DNA of 64,000 nucleotides, taken from the NCBI GenBank assembly GCA_963827685.1, contig CAWHBU010000002.1:576001-640000 (forward strand). The letters run 5' to 3'. The stretch's first letter is position 1. Each line of letters starts with the position of its first letter. Positions 18,187 through 22,850 of this stretch are shown here, in pieces. The notes beneath the pieces are model-generated. The model had not been told where the DNA came from and did no database searches. It saw only the letters and a list, made by a program, of their open reading frames with translations. A program made the translations under genes and the position numbers. This stretch comes from an uncultured delta proteobacterium (GTDB lineage Bacteria; Desulfobacterota; BSN033; UBA1163).

Positions 18187-18199
18187 TTTTCTCACTAAC

Positions 18200-18503
18200 G
18201 AGCCTGTAGAAAAAGTCACTTTTTTAAAAAGTGCTTCTTCTGCTGGATCAAAAATAGAAAATTATTTTCTGTCATCAAAAGGCTTTACAATCCTTGGTGC
18301 AATGTTTGTCTTTTCATGATATTTTTCTTACCAAAGTACCATATCACCCAATCCGGCTCCGTTCACGCAAACTCCACACCGTATCGAACGGAATAATCAT
18401 ATCTTTGTATCTCGCCATCCAGCCCCCCTAAGCGGTCCCGGCTCTCTTTGCCACTACTGATATGGCGATTTTATCATGCTTTCAAAGATTTTTCTACGGC
18501 CTC
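18200..18503 (-). mobile_element. 304-bp IS1182-family internal-deletion derivative (MITE) inserted in an attC
   Basis: TIRs GAGCCTGTAGAAAAA / TTTTTCTACGGCCTC (13/15). Relic reading MARYK-YDYS fused to ...RYGVEFA* from 18418 (one indel), resembling IS1182 transposase termini. Confidence 0.8.
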
Positions 18504-18590
18504 AAAGGGGGTGAGCTAACTACCAGATCGTAAGCTAAAGAAGAAGGGAGAAATGGGTGACACTCCTGAGAAGGAGAAAGGAGTGTACCC

Positions 18591-20537
18591 ATGGAGAATG
18601 TAGCAGGAGTTAAGAAGAAGGGCAAGAGGAAAGGAAGTCGGTATGGGAAGCGGTATGGGGTTGAGTTCAAGCTTCGGTGTGTGAAGTTACGATTAGAAGA
18701 AGGGTTACCAGTTTCTTTGTTGTCCGAGGAGGCAGGAGCCAGTAAAGATGTCATTCGTCGTTGGGTGAAGGCATATCAGGAACGGGGAGAAGCGGGGTTA
18801 CGGAATCGTATTATATCCTCGGGGAGACGACGGAAGCTTCCCGGACCAGTACGCGAGAAGATCGTCGAGATCAAGAAGCGTGAGCCTCTCTTTGGTGTCA
18901 AGCGGATTTCCCATCTTTTAAAGCGTGCGTTCTTCCTCAGCGCGAGCCCGGAGACAGTCCGTCGGACGCTGCGGGCAGAATCGTTGATTGTTCCTTCCAG
19001 AAAGAAACACCATCGCAACATCACCCGTCCTCGGTTTTTTGAGCGGTCGACACCGAATCAATTGTGGCAGTCGGACATCTTCACCTTTCGCCTGGGGGGT
19101 CGGTATGCCTATTTGATCGGGTTTATCGACGATTACTCGCGGTACATGGCGGGTTTGGAGTTATACCGGAGCCAGACGGCGGATCAGGTACTGGAGGTGT
19201 ATCGTCGGGCAGTTGGGGAGTATGGGGTACCGAAGGAGGTGTTGACAGATCGGGGACGGCAATATACGAACTGGCGGGGATCGACTCGGTTTGAGCGGGA
19301 GTTACGGAAGGACCGAGTCAGACACATTAAGTCCCAGGCCCATCATCCGATGACGCTGGGGAAGGTGGAGCGGTTTTGGAAGACGATCTATGAGGAGTTT
19401 TTGGTACGGGCGCAGTTTGGGAGTTTTGAGGAGGCGAGAGAGAGGATTCGGCAGTGGGTGCAGTATTACAATTACAAGCGGCCTCACCAGGGGATTGGAG
19501 GGCTGTGTCCTGCGGATCGGTACTTTGAGATCCAGGCAGAGCTGCGAAAGACGATGGAGCAAGGGATCGCAGAGAATGTGCTGGAGATGGCCTTGCGGGG
19601 GAAGCCGCGGGAGCCGTTTTACATGGTAGGGCGGATGGAGGGGCAGTCGGTGGTCTTACGGGCGGAGAAGGGAAAGCTGCGTTTGATGGTGGATGATGAA
19701 GAGGGCGGTGGAAAGCAGGAGATGATCTATGAAGTTGGCGCCAAAGGAGAAGAGAAAGATCGTTCTATTAAGAGGGAGGAGAGCGATGGACAAGGTAGAG
19801 AAGCCGAAGGTAGAGAGGTCAGGGATAGAGGACAAGAGAGGGAGGAAGGTTTCGGGGCACACGGCGGAGGAGAAGTGCCGGGCGGTGTTGTCGGTATGGA
19901 CGGAGAGACGCAAACCCGGAGAGGTTTGCCAGGAGTTGGGAGTCGCGTGGAGTTTATTGAACCAGTGGCAGGAGCGGGCGATGGAGGGGATGCTCTTGGC
20001 ATTGCAGTCACGGGTTGCGGTGATGGAGAAGAGAGTGGCATTGAACTCGCGTCTTGCGGTATTGTTGGAGCGGAAGAGCAAGGGAGGAGCGATGAAAGGA
20101 TTGGAGCGGCGTTTGGCGAGACTGCAGGGAAGTCCGGTGGCCAAGCCAGGAGAGTTGAAGGAGGTTGGGGCAGAGAAGAAGGTCTGACAATCTACAGGGA
20201 GATTTTGGATGGAGGAAAGGAAACGGCGGCACGAGAGGGAGAAGGAACAGAAACTTGCACGGGAGCGGGCGCTGGTGATTCTCCAGGTGCGCAGTGGAGC
20301 CTTAACTGCAAAGGAGGGAGCGCAGCGGCTGGGGGTGTCGCGCAAGACGTATTACGAGTGGGAGGAGAAGTCGCTCAAAGCCATGGCCCTGGCGTTGGAG
20401 AATCATCCTGCGGGAAGACCGCCTGTGCCTGTGGACGAAGAGAAGGAGACGCTTCTGGAGCGGATCCAGGAATTGGAGAAGAAGCTGGATGTCGCGAAGC
20501 AGACCACCAAGGTGAAAGAGTTCCTGGGGGTGTATGA
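18591..20537 (+). CDS. IS481/IS3-like DDE transposase (HTH + integrase core) with long Gly/Glu-rich tail
   Basis: PNQLWQSDIF, FIDDYSR, LTDRGRQY, GKVERFWKT, YNYKRPHQGI. Confidence 0.9.
   Translation: MENVAGVKKKGKRKGSRYGKRYGVEFKLRCVKLRLEEGLPVSLLSEEAGASKDVIRRWVKAYQERGEAGLRNRIISSGRRRKLPGPVREKIVEIKKREPLFGVKRISHLLKRAFFLSASPETVRRTLRAESLIVPSRKKHHRNITRPRFFERSTPNQLWQSDIFTFRLGGRYAYLIGFIDDYSRYMAGLELYRSQTADQVLEVYRRAVGEYGVPKEVLTDRGRQYTNWRGSTRFERELRKDRVRHIKSQAHHPMTLGKVERFWKTIYEEFLVRAQFGSFEEARERIRQWVQYYNYKRPHQGIGGLCPADRYFEIQAELRKTMEQGIAENVLEMALRGKPREPFYMVGRMEGQSVVLRAEKGKLRLMVDDEEGGGKQEMIYEVGAKGEEKDRSIKREESDGQGREAEGREVRDRGQEREEGFGAHGGGEVPGGVVGMDGETQTRRGLPGVGSRVEFIEPVAGAGDGGDALGIAVTGCGDGEESGIELASCGIVGAEEQGRSDERIGAAFGETAGKSGGQARRVEGGWGREEGLTIYREILDGGKETAAREGEGTETCTGAGAGDSPGAQWSLNCKGGSAAAGGVAQDVLRVGGEVAQSHGPGVGESSCGKTACACGRREGDASGADPGIGEEAGCREADHQGERVPGGV
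19786..20187 (+). CDS. Small HTH protein (IS3 OrfA-like), overlapping the transposase tail in another frame
   Basis: RBS GAGGGAG; HTAEEKCRAVLSVW...EVCQELGVAWSLLNQW. Confidence 0.75.
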   Translation: MDKVEKPKVERSGIEDKRGRKVSGHTAEEKCRAVLSVWTERRKPGEVCQELGVAWSLLNQWQERAMEGMLLALQSRVAVMEKRVALNSRLAVLLERKSKGGAMKGLERRLARLQGSPVAKPGELKEVGAEKKV

Positions 20538-20577
20538 GGAGTTTCGGGACCGCGGCGGCGCTAAAAAAAAACAATAG
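20209..20577 (+). CDS. HTH + coiled-coil protein (OrfA), ending in an A9 slippery site
   Basis: TAKEGAQRLGVSRKTYYEWE, leucine-zipper-like segment; A9 at 20563-20571. Confidence 0.8.
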   Translation: MEERKRRHEREKEQKLARERALVILQVRSGALTAKEGAQRLGVSRKTYYEWEEKSLKAMALALENHPAGRPPVPVDEEKETLLERIQELEKKLDVAKQTTKVKEFLGVYEEFRDRGGAKKKQ

Positions 20578-20621
20578 ATCGGCAAGAAGCGATCAGAAAG
20601 GTTGTAGAGACGATTGAGAGT

Positions 20622-21659
20622 ATGAAGGAACGGACAGGGATGCCTTATGGGATGATTTGCAAGACGCTTCAGCTCCCTTTAGCGAGTTTTAACCGGTGGC
20701 GCTTCAGGATCAAGGAAAACGTTGTTTTAATCAATCGTCCGGGTCCGAAGAAGGTACAACCGTTTGATCCTTCGGTTCTTGACACGGAGGTTCAATCGTT
20801 AGATCATGGGGTGAAGCGGAGTGTAGGAACAACCGGCTTATATCAACGGTACCGGTTTAGTGTGTCACGGCGGGAGCTGGGGCGAATGGTGGAGCGGGTA
20901 CGGCACGACCTGGAGTCGGATCGCCGTGCCCATCTTCGCTGGATCGAATGGCTGACGCCAGGGGTAGTGTGGGCTATGGACTTCACGGCATATGACCTGG
21001 GGATAGCCGGTAAAATCTATTTGCACAATACGCAGGATCTGGGCTCGCGGTACAAGTTTTTGCCGATGGCCGGAGAGTATCCGGTTGGAGAAGAGGTGGC
21101 TGGATATCTGAGCGAGAAGTTTGATCGGTATGGCACGCCTCTGGTGTTGAAGCGGGATAATGAAGGGAATATGAACCACACCGCCATCAACGATGTATTA
21201 GCCGAATCATTTGTTCTACCTTTGAACAATCCGGAGTATTATGCACCCTACAATGGAGCAATCGAAGAGTCACAACGAGAGGTGAAGACAACTCTACGGA
21301 AGAAAATTATGTTGGGTTTGCATGGCTACCGGGATCATATCGCTGCGTATGCGGAAGCTGCGGTCAATGATCTGAACCATCGGATCCGGCCTTGCCTGAA
21401 TGGGAAGACATCCTGTCAGGCATTCTTTGAATCTGGCAACAGACCGGCTTTTACGAAACGGCAAAGGAGGGGAATCTATGATTGGGTAATGGAAAGGGTG
21501 GAAAGGATTTTGTTGGCAATGAATCAATCTGGACTGGCTGTCAGAGAATCAGCCTGGAGGATCGCGGTGGAATCCTGGCTCCAATCCAGTGGACATATCA
21601 GGGTTCACATCAATAAAAAGTGTCACCCAATTTTACCCCTTTTTTTAGCTCATGAATAG
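20622..21659 (+). CDS. Second DDE integrase-core protein (OrfB), probably fused to 20209-20577 by a -1 frameshift
   Basis: VWAMDFT, QDLGSRY, KRDNEG, NGAIEE, LNHRIRP. The -1 frame is open from the A9 run to the ATG. The stop lies inside the right TIR. Confidence 0.85.
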   Translation: MKERTGMPYGMICKTLQLPLASFNRWRFRIKENVVLINRPGPKKVQPFDPSVLDTEVQSLDHGVKRSVGTTGLYQRYRFSVSRRELGRMVERVRHDLESDRRAHLRWIEWLTPGVVWAMDFTAYDLGIAGKIYLHNTQDLGSRYKFLPMAGEYPVGEEVAGYLSEKFDRYGTPLVLKRDNEGNMNHTAINDVLAESFVLPLNNPEYYAPYNGAIEESQREVKTTLRKKIMLGLHGYRDHIAAYAEAAVNDLNHRIRPCLNGKTSCQAFFESGNRPAFTKRQRRGIYDWVMERVERILLAMNQSGLAVRESAWRIAVESWLQSSGHIRVHINKKCHPILPLFLAHE

Positions 21660-21675
21660 GTAGCGTGTACGGTGA

Positions 21676-21728
21676 GCTTGAGCTAAGTGGTGGGCGCTTT
21701 GCCCATCCACTTGAGCGACTTGTTCAGC
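21676..21728 (-). other. Main body of an interrupted attC (its R' box is displaced to 18193-18199)
   Basis: GCTAAGTGG/CCACTT[G]AGC arms with an extra base, then GCGACTTGTT as in the attC at 15326. R'' GCTGAAC pairs with the cassette start GTTCGGC at 23299. Confidence 0.85.
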
Positions 21729-21732
21729 ACTA

Positions 21733-22850
21733 GTATCTACTTGACATAATAAGCGTAATATGCTAACTTTCCTGTATTATGAGCAGGAAAGCAAAAGAAA
21801 TCACGTTGGAGCCCGAGCAACGGGCTGAGTTGGATCGATTGGTTCGAACCCATACCACTCCCAAGCGTATGGCGGAGAGGGCGCAAATTATTCTCTGGGG
21901 TGCTGAAGGGCAGAGTAACACGGAGATTGCCAAAAGGCTGAGGACTCGTGTTGCACGCGTTTGCAAATGGCGTAGCCGTTTCGTCAGAGAAGGGTTGGCA
22001 GGTTTGCTTGATGAACCGCGCCCCGGGCAGCCACGTAAGTACACCGCAGAGACCGAACACACAATTCTGCGCAAGATCGATGAAGCTCCTCCGAAGGGAT
22101 ATGCCCAGTGGAACGGAAGGCTTCTGGGGGAGAGGACGAGCATCCCGGATTATGAAGTGTGGGCGGTGTTGCGCAAGTATGGGATTAGCCTTCAGAGACG
22201 GCGCAGTTGGTGTATTTCGACGGACCCTGAATTTGCACGGAAGTCCGCTGATATTGTTGGGCTTTACCTGGATCCTCCTGAGAACGCCATGGTGGTATGC
22301 ATGGATGAGAAGCCAGCCATTCAGGCGTTGGAACGGGCTCAGGGGTGGCTTAAACTGCCCAATGGCAAGGCGCTGACGGGAGCCAACCATGAGTATAGAC
22401 GGCATGGAACGAGTACCCTCTTTGCAGCCTTGAATGTGGCCACGGGACAAGTGAAGGCGGGCCATTACGGCCGCCGTTGTCGCCGGGAGTTTCTGGATTT
22501 TATGAACGAGATCGTTGCCGAACATCCGGACGAGGAAATCCATGTGATTATGGACAATTTGAAGACTCATCGACCGAAGAGGGATCATTGGATTAAACGC
22601 CATCCGAAGGTTCATTTTCATTTTACGCCCACACATGCTTCCTGGCTGAACCAGATCGAAATCTGGTTCAGTCTTCTGAGCCGCTATGCCTTGAGGGGCG
22701 CCTCCTTTACAAGCGTCCGACAGTTGCGCCAGGCGATCGATGAGTTTATTTCCGTCCATAACGAAAAGGCAGCCCCGTTTGAATGGACCAAGCGTTATGT
22801 CAAATCAGTTCACCCTAAAAATAAGTACGCTTATTTATATAATTAGATAC
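21733..22850 (+). mobile_element. IS630-family insertion sequence
   Basis: TIR GTATCTA...AATAAGCGTA at both ends; TA duplication within CTAG (21731-21732, 22851-22852). Confidence 0.92.
21779..22846 (+). CDS. IS630 transposase
   Basis: N-terminal HTH; MDEK, YRRHGT, IMDN, SWLNQIEIWF, PFEW. Confidence 0.95.
   Translation: MSRKAKEITLEPEQRAELDRLVRTHTTPKRMAERAQIILWGAEGQSNTEIAKRLRTRVARVCKWRSRFVREGLAGLLDEPRPGQPRKYTAETEHTILRKIDEAPPKGYAQWNGRLLGERTSIPDYEVWAVLRKYGISLQRRRSWCISTDPEFARKSADIVGLYLDPPENAMVVCMDEKPAIQALERAQGWLKLPNGKALTGANHEYRRHGTSTLFAALNVATGQVKAGHYGRRCRREFLDFMNEIVAEHPDEEIHVIMDNLKTHRPKRDHWIKRHPKVHFHFTPTHASWLNQIEIWFSLLSRYALRGASFTSVRQLRQAIDEFISVHNEKAAPFEWTKRYVKSVHPKNKYAYLYN

What the first reader, a model, noticed from the sequence alone, without database searches (positions are those of the whole stretch)
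18520..21678. One element, two different DDE transposases, inserted in an attC site
Seen in the sequence: a single pair of 45-bp imperfect TIRs (33/45) that begin CTACC rather than the TG...CA typical of IS3/IS481. They enclose (i) an HTH + integrase-core IS481-like protein, (ii) a free OrfA-like HTH protein, and (iii) an IS3-style orfA/orfB pair joined by an A9 -1 slippery site. I found no internal IRs that would mark two nested ISs, and ORFs (ii)-(iii) overlap the tail of (i), so the unit looks co-evolved. It lies between two TGAGCTAA repeats belonging to the attC arm. A further 15 nt beyond the right IR (21664-21678) itself ends in the target-like GGTGAGCT. Established: ordinary IS3/IS481 elements have one catalytic DDE protein; heteromeric transposases are known from Tn7-type elements. 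Inference: this may be an undescribed family with a two-subunit transposase, possibly aimed at attC or hairpin DNA.
Basis: partly seen in the sequence, partly recalled or inferred. Interest (0 to 1): 0.8.

Follow-up and report, generated by a model that had tools for sequence, protein, structure and literature searches.

The report
Insertion sequence with two transposases
This is a 3.16-kb jumping gene, present in several near-identical copies, that always carries two different cut-and-paste enzymes instead of the usual one and leaves no duplicated target sequence, but it is not aimed at integron attC sites.

Summary
The element is real, but its ends are misplaced in the finding. Five copies in this genome (four about 100% alike, one 83%) and about 60 relatives put the ends at window 18512-21670. 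The left end reads TGAGCTAA-CTACC and the right end GGTAG-CGTGTAC(A), so it is TG...CA. The left TGAGCTAA is the element's own tip, not target DNA.

All four genes are confirmed: an IS481-like transposase, two paralogous small HTH genes, and an IS3-style second transposase reached by slippage on a conserved A8-9 run.

The two DDE genes stay adjacent down to 29-38% (ORF4) and 43-64% (ORF1) identity. They co-occur in 12 of 12 genomes of one 401-genome sample. Both keep intact DDE triads, and all four genes have dN/dS 0.08-0.33. No internal inverted repeats and no solo forms were found. "One co-evolved two-transposase unit" is therefore supported.

The attC/hairpin idea is not supported: no integron integrase, housekeeping neighbours, and a flanking hairpin in 1 of 34 copies.

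Two extra findings stand out. No target-site duplication of 4 bp or more was seen in 0 of 42 copies. The IS481-like reading frame is kept open across the HTH genes.

I found no published description. ISfinder could not be queried.

The parts
18512..21670 (+). The insertion sequence (3159 bp). At position 21671 the other copies have the terminal A of CA; the window copy has G.
   Evidence: Shared block of four near-identical copies and one 83% copy in the same genome. Ends are TG...CA in relatives.
18512..18573 (+). Left inverted repeat. It includes the TGAGCTAA tip, CTACC, AGCTAAAGAAGAAGGG and GGGTGACACT.
   Evidence: 37 of 62 positions match the reverse complement of the right end. 45-nt core. 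The motifs are conserved in relatives, including distant ones.
21609..21670 (+). Right inverted repeat (AGTGTCACCC ... GGTAG CGTGTAC).
18591..20537 (+). ORF1, an IS481-like DDE transposase. The conserved HTH + rve core runs to about 19745 (aa 1-385; D162, D220, E260). A Gly/Glu-rich tail of about 260 aa follows, read in another frame across ORF2 and ORF3.
   Evidence: for the family and triad. Coding signal up to about 19728. The frame is kept open. Tail 'dN/dS' is 1.5-2.
19786..20187 (+). ORF2, a small OrfA-like HTH protein and a paralogue of ORF3. The conserved start is ATG 19786.
   Evidence: Pfam HTH_Tnp_1. Start conserved in 7 of 7 aligned elements. 31% identical to ORF3, E 5e-6. dN/dS 0.13-0.23. 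Not found by tblastn in the four distant relatives, whose ORF lists show a single OrfA.
20209..20577 (+). ORF3, the OrfA of the IS3-style pair.
   Evidence: HTH hits. dN/dS 0.19-0.33.
20563..20571 (+). A9 slippage run joining ORF3 to ORF4 (-1 frame).
   Evidence: A8-A9 in 7 of 7 aligned elements and in 27 of 27 distinct junctions caught. The linker 20577-20621 evolves as coding in ORF4's frame.
20622..21659 (+). ORF4, the second DDE transposase (D120, D179, E215). Its frame is open from 20565.
   Evidence: Triad invariant in 35 of 35 homologues at 30-87% identity. The profile hits retroviral integrase cores, best E 1e-12. It aligns end to end with ORF1's family, hhalign 93.8%. dN/dS 0.11-0.17.
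21671..21716 (.). Right flank of this copy only: GGTGAGCT (21671-78), TGAGCTAA (21679-86) and an imperfect hairpin (21682-21716). This is unique DNA between this IS and an IS630 element.
   Evidence: Unique in the genome up to about 21727. Right-flank folding z -6.7; it is the only one of 34 copies with z < -2.
18195..18505 (.). Left flank: a MITE-like 0.3-kb derivative of an IS1182-like element (not part of the finding's element).
   Evidence: (I2).

Best explanation
Window 18512-21670 is one autonomous insertion sequence of the rve-type DDE (IS3/IS481) superfamily. It belongs to a widespread family found in MAGs labelled Thermodesulfobacteriota/delta proteobacterium and Thermodesulfovibrionia (Nitrospirota), and in sediment, wetland and soil metagenomes.

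SHOWN
- It moves as a single 3.16-kb unit with TG...CA ends and inverted repeats of about 55-60 bp.
- It always carries two distantly paralogous full-length DDE transposases: an IS481-like ORF1, and an ORF4 preceded by an OrfA-type HTH gene.
- Both transposases keep their catalytic triads, and all four genes are under purifying selection.
- An A7-A9 run sits at the OrfA/ORF4 junction throughout the family.
- The linker after the run evolves as coding sequence.
- The ORF1 frame is kept free of stops across the HTH gene(s).
- Copies show no target-site duplication.

INFERRED
- ORF3-ORF4 is made as a fusion by slippage on the A run. Slippage is probably transcriptional, because the required shift is -1 in this clade and +1 in the distant clade.
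- Both transposases are needed. They may act together on the two slightly different ends, either as a mixed complex or with a division of labour. An unusual strand-transfer geometry, or insertion into breaks, would explain the missing duplication.
- The long unconserved tail of ORF1 mainly serves to carry ribosomes to the start of ORF4 (translational coupling), or it is a disordered appendage.

The element is not inserted in an attC site. This copy sits in an IS-rich intergenic spot next to a sequence that resembles its own left tip.
For: UNIT
- 4 copies about 100% alike and 1 copy 83% alike over the full 3.16 kb, with sharp common ends.
- No internal end motifs.

PAIRING
- 10 of 14 genome loci with enough upstream DNA have all four genes; the other 4 are truncated or deleted. 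Six of the 10 come from one MAG.
- 39 of 41 metagenome loci have all four genes.
- Nitrospirota copies have the same order, with ORF1 67-69% and ORF4 48-50% identical to the window's.
- Relatives at 29-38% ORF4 identity still have the ORF1-like gene upstream, 43-64% identical.
- In one sample of 401 genomes, the 12 genomes with ORF1-like hits of at least 42% identity are exactly those with adjacent ORF4-like hits. The next ORF1 hits drop to 33-34% identity, have 349-373-aa frames and no ORF4.

CATALYSIS
- ORF4 D120/D179/E215 are invariant in 35 of 35 homologues.
- ORF1 D220/E260 are invariant and D162 is present in 16 of 17.
- The two triads align with each other.

SELECTION: dN/dS 0.08-0.33 for all four genes.

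SLIPPAGE
- Conserved A8-9 run.
- Linker third-position change 0.34 against 0.13/0.14 at positions 1 and 2; open in 27 of 27 junctions.
- +1 arrangement with an A7-9 run in three of the four distant elements looked at (L048, L050, L051).

OPEN FRAME
- 0 stops observed where synonymous-codon shuffles expect 0.8-3.6, in 12 of 12 tests and 4 of 4 distant tests.
- 98 of 120 ORF1 homologues are 600 aa or longer.
- In 59 elements the frame never stops before codon 496, and 41 of 59 stop within 150 nt upstream of ORF4.

NO DUPLICATION
- 0 of 34 copies have a match of 4 bp or more; 3 of 34 match at 2 bp against 2.1 expected.
- 8 further copies on long contigs: none, apart from one 3-nt GGG.
Against: - No experiment and no raw reads: transposition, slippage products, the ORF1 tail and any contact between the two proteins were not observed.
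- ORF4's Pfam rve match is below the gathering score (19.8 against 32.6 bits), and 10 of 35 family members give no rve hit at E <= 0.01.
- Individual shuffle tests for the open frame are weak (P 0.006-0.38). The elements are related, so the tests are not independent.
- Many flanks come from short-read metagenome contigs, which can be chimeric at repeats. The absence of a duplication rests most firmly on about 18 copies from long contigs.
- No empty site was found to show the target before insertion.
- One distant copy (L051) has Ala in place of ORF1's first Asp.
- A requirement for both enzymes is inferred only from conservation.
Confidence: 0.72

Rival explanations
1. One enzyme does the chemistry and the other is an accessory. 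Only ORF1 (or only OrfAB) cleaves and joins DNA. The second DDE protein acts as a regulator, inhibitor, end-binding or target-choosing factor, or as a redundant alternative transposase used under other conditions.
For: - ORF1 evolves much more slowly than ORF4: 86% against 64%, and 64% against 38%, in the same elements.
- ORF4 is only weakly rve-like by Pfam.
- IS families commonly encode truncated or extra products that regulate (established knowledge for IS3 OrfA and IS1 InsA; recalled).
Against: - ORF4's D-D-E triad is invariant in 35 of 35 homologues down to 30% identity, and its dN/dS is 0.11-0.17. A mere DNA binder would not need this.
- ORF1's triad is also kept, in 16 of 17.
Confidence: 0.2
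2. Chance nesting or juxtaposition of two ordinary insertion sequences (an IS3-like one beside or inside an IS481-like one) that happens to sit within one pair of repeats.
For: The two halves resemble two different known families. IS-in-IS nesting is common, and this very locus holds three different elements side by side.
Against: - No internal end motifs.
- The whole unit is copied intact 4-5 times here and 5 times each in two other genomes.
- The pairing persists to 29-38% ORF4 identity.
- No solo relatives were seen in two samples of 401 genomes. The second sample was queried with the ORF4 profile only.
- The genes overlap in frame-specific ways that are conserved.
Confidence: 0.03
3. The element is specialised for attC sites or other hairpin DNA.
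For: - This copy's right flank is a strong imperfect hairpin, z -6.7.
- It lies 6-8 bp from a MITE whose relatives sit beside structured palindromes ending in GTTAG(G/C)C.
- An IS481-family element that inserts into REP sequences is on record (PMC11708052, passages read).
Against: - Only 1 of 34 copies has a structured flank.
- The flanks show no sequence consensus.
- No match to the integron-integrase model reaches its cut-off in the genome, and none lies in the window.
- The neighbours are pyrimidine, NAD and lipid housekeeping genes.
- A crude RYYYAAC...GTTRRRY scan finds 2 sites elsewhere in the window, against 4 in a shuffle.
Confidence: 0.03
4. It is an already catalogued subgroup (for instance filed under IS481 or ISNCY in ISfinder), so nothing is new except the copy.
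For: - The family is abundant: 1657 ORF4 homologues at E <= 1e-3, and 598 or more metagenome stretches.
- Sources label the proteins 'transposase InsO family protein', so curators may have met it.
Against: - Five full-text searches found no description of an IS with two DDE transposases.
- No ISfinder-style name appears among 240 listed homologues.
- No homologue of ORF4 was found in 72,556 plasmid records.
- ORF4 reaches no NCBIfam transposase cut-off.
Confidence: 0.25

Closest known systems
IS481 family
   Same: ORF1 is a single-frame HTH + rve DDE transposase that scores 219.9 bits on the NCBIfam IS481 model. The termini are TG...CA with long inverted repeats; TG..CA termini are used to define IS481-like elements in PMC10045372 (passages).
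   Different: - ORF1's score is just under the 224-bit cut-off.
- The element is 3.16 kb and carries a second DDE gene plus one or two HTH genes.
- ORF1 has a 110-280-aa overprinted tail, whereas the ordinary IS481-like hits in the same genomes have 349-373-aa frames.
- No target duplication was seen, whereas IS481 members give 2-15 bp, mostly 6 bp (PMC10045372).
IS3 family (orfA/orfB with programmed frameshift)
   Same: A small HTH OrfA is followed by a DDE OrfB in another frame, with an A-run at the junction. The ends are TG...CA.
   Different: - ORF4 scores only 27 bits on the IS3 model, against a cut-off of 160.
- The run is a plain A8-9 homopolymer, and the distant clade needs a +1 shift. 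This resembles the transcriptional slippage reported for IS elements and the +1 IS1447 group (PMC1088944 and PMC6211511: search listing and abstract only).
- There is no 3-5-bp duplication (that figure is recalled).
- A second transposase is present.
Tn7-type heteromeric transposase (TnsA + TnsB)
   Same: Two different nuclease-type proteins are encoded by one element. The idea that each handles a different cleavage is the model for the 'works together' reading.
   Different: TnsA is a restriction-enzyme-like protein, not a DDE enzyme (recalled). No TnsA/TnsC/TniQ-like genes are present: only HTH and rve hits were found. Tn7 makes a 5-bp duplication (recalled).
IS21 (IstA + IstB) and other two-gene insertion sequences
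   Same: The element depends on more than one gene product. IstA is also an rve-type enzyme: ORF1 gives a weak IS21 model hit of 49 bits, and PDB IS5376/IstA chains hit at E 4.5e-4.
   Different: The helper IstB is an AAA+ ATPase (recalled), not a second DDE enzyme.
DDE transposons that leave no duplication (eukaryotic Spy; an IS481-family insertion in Pseudomonas fluorescens SBW25)
   Same: No target-site duplication. PMC10045372 lists PHIS-group elements that make none or 1-4 bp. PMC11708052 reports an IS481-family insertion with no duplication, with 4 bp carried along with the element.
   Different: These are single-transposase elements. In SBW25 the duplication-free event was tied to a large rearrangement and a REP target, which is not seen here.

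Membership tests
IS481 family | Transposase matches the curated IS481 model above its cut-off | tested here: inconclusive
   ORF1 scores 219.9 bits against a cut-off of 224, full-length match 27-311. ORF4 scores 33.2 bits.
IS481 family | One transposase gene in a single frame as the only element-encoded protein | tested here: not met
   There are four conserved genes, two of them DDE enzymes.
IS481 family | Target-site duplication of 2-15 bp, mostly 6 bp (PMC10045372) | tested here: not met
   0 of 34 copies have a match of 4 bp or more, and 2-3 bp matches are at chance level. 8 further long-contig copies show none.
IS481 / IS3 superfamily | TG...CA termini with imperfect terminal inverted repeats | tested here: met
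   The window copy itself ends CG instead of CA.
IS3 family | orfA and orfB in the 0 and -1 frames with a slippery A-rich motif giving an OrfAB fusion | tested here: met
   ORF3/ORF4 with an A9 run at 20563-20571. The run is conserved. The linker is coding in ORF4's frame. The fusion product itself was not observed.
IS3 family | Transposase matches the curated IS3 model above its cut-off | tested here: not met
   ORF4 scores 27.2 bits and ORF3 27.1 bits against a cut-off of 160. ORF1 scores 156.9 bits.
Integron attC site / gene cassette context | An integron integrase or a cassette array nearby | tested here: not met
   TIGR02249 gives 26 matches in the genome, none over the 265-bit cut-off and none inside C2:576001-640000. 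The best is a 119-residue fragment on another contig. The neighbours are housekeeping genes.
Integron attC site / gene cassette context | Paired RYYYAAC ... GTTRRRY core sites closing an imperfect palindrome of 50-150 nt | tested here: not met
   My own crude scan gives 2 hits in the window (39.8 and 43.4 kb), none at 18.5 or 21.7 kb, against 4 in a shuffled window. IntegronFinder's model was not available.
Tn7-like heteromeric transposase | A TnsA-type endonuclease with TnsB, plus TnsC/TniQ-type targeting genes | tested here: not met
   Only HTH and rve families were found in the four proteins.
Composite or nested insertion sequences | Each half is bounded by its own inverted repeats and occurs alone elsewhere | tested here: not met
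   No internal end motifs. No solo relatives in two samples of 401 genomes; the second sample was queried with the ORF4 profile only. The exceptions are truncated or deleted copies.

The most novel reading that the evidence does not exclude
This is an undescribed insertion-sequence family whose transposition needs two paralogous DDE transposases working as one machine, for example each serving one of the two non-identical tips or one strand. That geometry would make it insert without any target duplication. The 250-codon overprinted extension of the first transposase gene would be a conserved device that couples translation of the second transposase to the first.
Probability: 0.3. Interest if true: 0.8.

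Novelty: new variant of a known kind. Interest (0 to 1): 0.62.

Why it matters
Insertion sequences are the textbook case of "one element, one transposase". The only well-studied heteromeric transposase (Tn7) pairs a DDE enzyme with a different kind of nuclease.

A widespread, currently active family differs on three counts:
- It has kept two full DDE enzymes together since they diverged to less than 20% identity.
- It leaves no target duplication.
- It maintains a long overlapping reading frame.

Such a family would give a natural system for asking how two retroviral-integrase-like enzymes share the work of cutting and joining. It would test whether duplication-free insertion can come from DDE chemistry. 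It would also show how overlapping frames regulate transposase dosage.

There is a practical side too. Annotation pipelines now call ORF4 "hypothetical" and would split the element into two unrelated insertion sequences.

Tried and rejected
- Complex prediction of the ORF1 core with ORF4: score 0.00, no verdict. It is not used either way.
- Laying public runs on the element: all runs are kept as contigs only.
  - No right-end-to-left-end junction was seen, and no usable view of the A run.
  - Two metatranscriptome runs from two studies hold contigs mostly under 95% alike (85-95%) over 28-29 of 30 bins. This is at most a weak hint that relatives are transcribed, since DNA carry-over is not excluded.
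- Empty-site search in the same-genus genome G246 and same-family genome G124 with a whole copy plus flanks: the flanks are too diverged, so no empty site was found.
- tblastn of ORF4 against 72,556 plasmids: no match.
- The idea that the outer 8 nt at each side are an 8-bp duplication: rejected. TGAGCTAA and CGTGTACA differ from each other and travel with the element in all identical copies.
- The idea that GGTGAGCT (18510-17 and 21671-78) is a true duplication: rejected. It would make TGAGCT target DNA, which the other copies and relatives contradict. It remains unexplained.
- Cross-matching left and right flanks between different copies of one genome, by eye on the outputs, to look for swapped duplications: none found.
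- Structure prediction and fold search were not run. The profile hits to integrase cores made them unnecessary.
- Supplementary files of papers were not consulted. Those of PMC10045372 may list ISfinder IS481 members with extra genes.

Full report
WHAT IS THERE

The 45-nt imperfect inverted repeat named in the finding exists (18520-18564 / 21619-21663, 73%). So do the four reading frames.
- ORF1 (18591-20537) carries HTH and integrase-core domains. It scores 219.9 bits on NCBI's IS481 model (cut-off 224) and 156.9 on the IS3 model (cut-off 160).
- ORF2 and ORF3 are small HTH proteins. They are paralogues: 31% identity over the HTH, E 5e-6.
- ORF4 (20622-21659) is a weak integrase-core match: Pfam rve E 9.7e-4, under the gathering score; IS481 model E 3.7e-8.
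- Read directly, ORF3 ends GCT AAA AAA AAA CAA TAG. The -1 frame is open from 20565 into ORF4.

THE TRUE ENDS

The genome holds five copies: four about 100% identical over the whole length and one at 83%.
- The identical copies share DNA from TGAGCTAA-CTACC (window 18512) to GGTAG-CGTGTAC (21670). This is followed by A in three copies and by G in the window copy.
- In relatives the ends read TGNNCTAACTACCAGAT ... GGTAGCNNGNACA.
- In a Nitrospirota clade they read TGTCCTAGCGACCAG ... CTAGCGTGCACA.
- The element therefore has ordinary TG...CA tips, and the left TGAGCTAA is part of it.
- The two ends match at 37 of 62 positions, and their motifs occur nowhere inside the element.

ONE UNIT OR TWO NESTED ELEMENTS?

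Genome records. A pattern search found 16 loci, in MAGs labelled Thermodesulfobacteriota or delta proteobacterium and in one Thermodesulfovibrionia MAG.
- Of the 14 loci with at least about 2 kb upstream of ORF4, 10 have ORF1-ORF2-ORF3-ORF4 in the same order. Six of these 10 are from one MAG.
- The other four (L014, L017, L018, L020) are truncated or internally deleted.

Metagenome contigs. The 80 best loci were kept out of 598 confirmed stretches.
- 39 of the 41 loci with enough upstream DNA have all four genes.
- The two exceptions are a copy lacking the ORF1 core (L099) and one with an internal deletion (L150).

A 401-genome sample of the window's phylum.
- ORF4 matched 15 genomes.
- ORF1 matched 15 genomes at E <= 1e-40.
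- The 12 genomes with ORF1-like hits of at least 42% identity are exactly those with substantial ORF4-like hits, and the two genes are adjacent.
- The three ORF4-only genomes are a contig-end fragment and two weak hits (E 2.6e-7 and 1.8e-6).
- The three ORF1-only genomes have 33-34% identity and ordinary 349-373-aa frames.

Distant relatives (L048-L051).
- ORF4 is only 29-38% identical, yet the ORF1-like gene (43-64%) still lies directly upstream.
- They have a single OrfA in place of ORF2 + ORF3.

A 401-genome sample of Nitrospirota.
- It gave 9 genomes with matches.
- Copies with enough DNA again have the four genes, with ORF1 67-69% and ORF4 48-50% identical to the window's.

The pairing is therefore old and strict. 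I found no solo form.

ARE BOTH ENZYMES LIVE?

- In 35 ORF4 homologues (30-87% identity), D120, D179 and E215 are invariant.
- The family profile hits retroviral integrase catalytic cores, best E 1e-12.
- In 17 ORF1 homologues, D220 and E260 are invariant and D162 is present in 16.
- The two families align end to end (hhalign 93.8%, 18% identity, 277 columns), with the triads superposed. ORF4 is thus a distant full-length paralogue of ORF1.
- Pairwise dN/dS against six relatives is 0.08-0.12 (ORF1 core), 0.13-0.23 (ORF2), 0.19-0.33 (ORF3) and 0.11-0.17 (ORF4).
- ORF4 homologues are numerous: 1657 at E <= 1e-3 in one collection, and 240 clusters at E <= 1e-30 in another.
- Source labels also name Anaerolineales and Candidatus Hydromicrobium, an Actinomycetota genus.

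EXPRESSION SIGNALS

- The A run is A8 or A9 in 7 of 7 aligned elements and in 27 of 27 junctions caught by a pattern (A8 in 21, A9 in 6).
- The 45 nt between the run and ORF4's ATG change mostly at third positions of ORF4's frame (0.34 against 0.13 and 0.14).
- That stretch encodes a conserved KK(P/T)xDRQEAI... peptide, although a stop closes that frame at the start of the run. It must therefore be entered from ORF3.
- In three of the four distant elements (L048, L050, L051) an A7-A9 run is present, but ORF4 lies in the +1 frame in all four.
- A conserved homopolymer that serves both directions fits transcriptional slippage. This is reported for IS elements (PMC1088944) and for a +1 IS3 group (PMC6211511). 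I saw only the listing and abstract starts of these two papers.

THE OVERLAPPING FRAME

- Substitutions show that ORF1's frame is the coding one up to about 19728. ORF2/ORF3's frame is the coding one from there on.
- Yet ORF1's frame stays open for 591-678 codons in 6 of 7 relatives; the seventh has a frameshift in the core.
- Shuffling synonymous codons within ORF2 or ORF3 predicts 0.8-3.6 stops in that frame. None is seen in 12 of 12 tests (P 0.006-0.38 each). The third frame has as many stops as the shuffles predict.
- The same holds for the distant relatives: 0 observed against 0.5-2.8 expected.
- Of 120 ORF1 homologues, 98 are 600 aa or longer. Their tails are 25% Gly and 13% Glu.
- In 59 distinct elements the frame never closes before codon 496, and 41 close within 150 nt upstream of ORF4.
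- Read as protein, the tail evolves with "dN/dS" 1.5-2. Openness is conserved; the sequence is not.
- My inference, which is untested: the frame delivers ribosomes to ORF4, or it encodes a disordered appendage.

TARGET AND DUPLICATION

- Among 34 distinct copies with 60-nt flanks, none has a direct repeat of 4 bp or more at the TG/CA boundaries. Matches of 2 and 3 bp are at chance level (3 and 1, against 2.1 and 0.5 expected).
- Eight more copies on contigs of 36 kb to 2.4 Mb (seven of them 0.3 Mb or longer) show none, apart from one GGG.
- The flanks have no consensus and no excess of secondary structure. The one exception is the window copy's right flank, z -6.7.
- A side observation: the last 12 nt of the left flank match the element's own right-tip 8-mer at 6 or more of 8 positions in 7 of 39 copies, against 0 of 39 for a distal control. 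The window copy has the mirror case, with a left-tip-like TGAGCTAA in its right flank.
- Insertion next to end-like sequences is known for IS3-type elements. This is recalled and was not checked.
- IS481 members normally duplicate 2-15 bp (PMC10045372, passages). A duplication-free IS481-family insertion has been reported (PMC11708052, passages).

attC

- No match to the integron-integrase model reaches its cut-off anywhere in the genome, and none lies in the window.
- The neighbours are aspartate carbamoyltransferase, dihydroorotase-like, NAPRTase, a phosphoribosyltransferase, a carboxylase subunit, YceD and PlsX.
- A crude core-site scan finds nothing here.
- The copy sits between a 0.3-kb MITE-like derivative of an IS1182-like element (18195-18505) and an IS630 element that begins near 21728. 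This is an IS-rich intergenic spot.

NOVELTY

- Five full-text searches found no description of an insertion sequence with two DDE transposases.
- Sources name the proteins only "hypothetical" or "InsO family".
- ISfinder could not be queried, so prior cataloguing is not excluded. I put that at about 25%.
- I file the element as a new variant within the IS3/IS481 superfamily, not as a member of either family. Several defining features were tested and not met.

LIMITS

- Everything is comparative.
- The complex prediction gave no verdict.
- The public runs are contigs only.

Noticed in passing
window 18195-18505; also G000 C3:132995-134803 and at least 8 other places: The left flank is a 0.3-kb MITE-like internal-deletion derivative of a 1.8-kb element. 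That element encodes a 517-aa IS1182-like transposase (256.7 bits, cut-off 270) and has GAGCCTGTAGAAAAAGTC ends. In the 10 copies examined one end is followed by AA(C/T/A), and in several by an imperfect palindrome ending in GTTAG(G/C)C-like words. This looks like a structured, attC- or REP-like target.
   Followed up: partly
window 21671-21716: The right junction of this copy is odd. The terminal A of CA is replaced by G. Then comes GGTGAGCT, which equals the 2 nt of left flank plus the first 6 nt of the element. Then TGAGCTAA, which equals the element's left tip and forms part of a native hairpin. No other copy shows this. It may be an insertion next to an end-like sequence, or a relic of an end-to-end junction, and this copy may be immobile.
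   Followed up: partly
left flanks of L007/L103, L098, L108, L130 and others: In 7 of 39 copies the 12 nt left of the element resemble the element's own right-tip 8-mer (6 or more of 8 positions), against 0 of 39 in a distal control. This gives right-tip-like / 1 nt / left-tip arrangements.
   Followed up: partly
window 21728-22850 (ORF 21779-22846): An IS630-family element (248.8 bits, cut-off 100) lies 56 nt to the right, with four further identical left ends in the genome. A 340-aa ORF on the opposite strand overlaps it and is probably spurious.
   Followed up: partly
G000 C3:782919-783275: A 141-aa open frame matches only the C-terminal third (positions 197-315) of the integron-integrase model, at 191 bits (cut-off 265). 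It is a possible integrase remnant far from the window.
   Followed up: no
L021 (1405-1857 and 3360-3956) and L199: Copies of the element are themselves interrupted or truncated by other insertions. In L021 the ORF1 core is split by about 1.5 kb; in L199 ORF1 starts at residue 168.
   Followed up: no
L005 (G000 C2:8693-11831): The 83% copy in the same genome lacks the TG at its left tip (GCCGCTAAC...). Its ORF3 runs on past the usual stop, so it may be an inactive older lineage.
   Followed up: no
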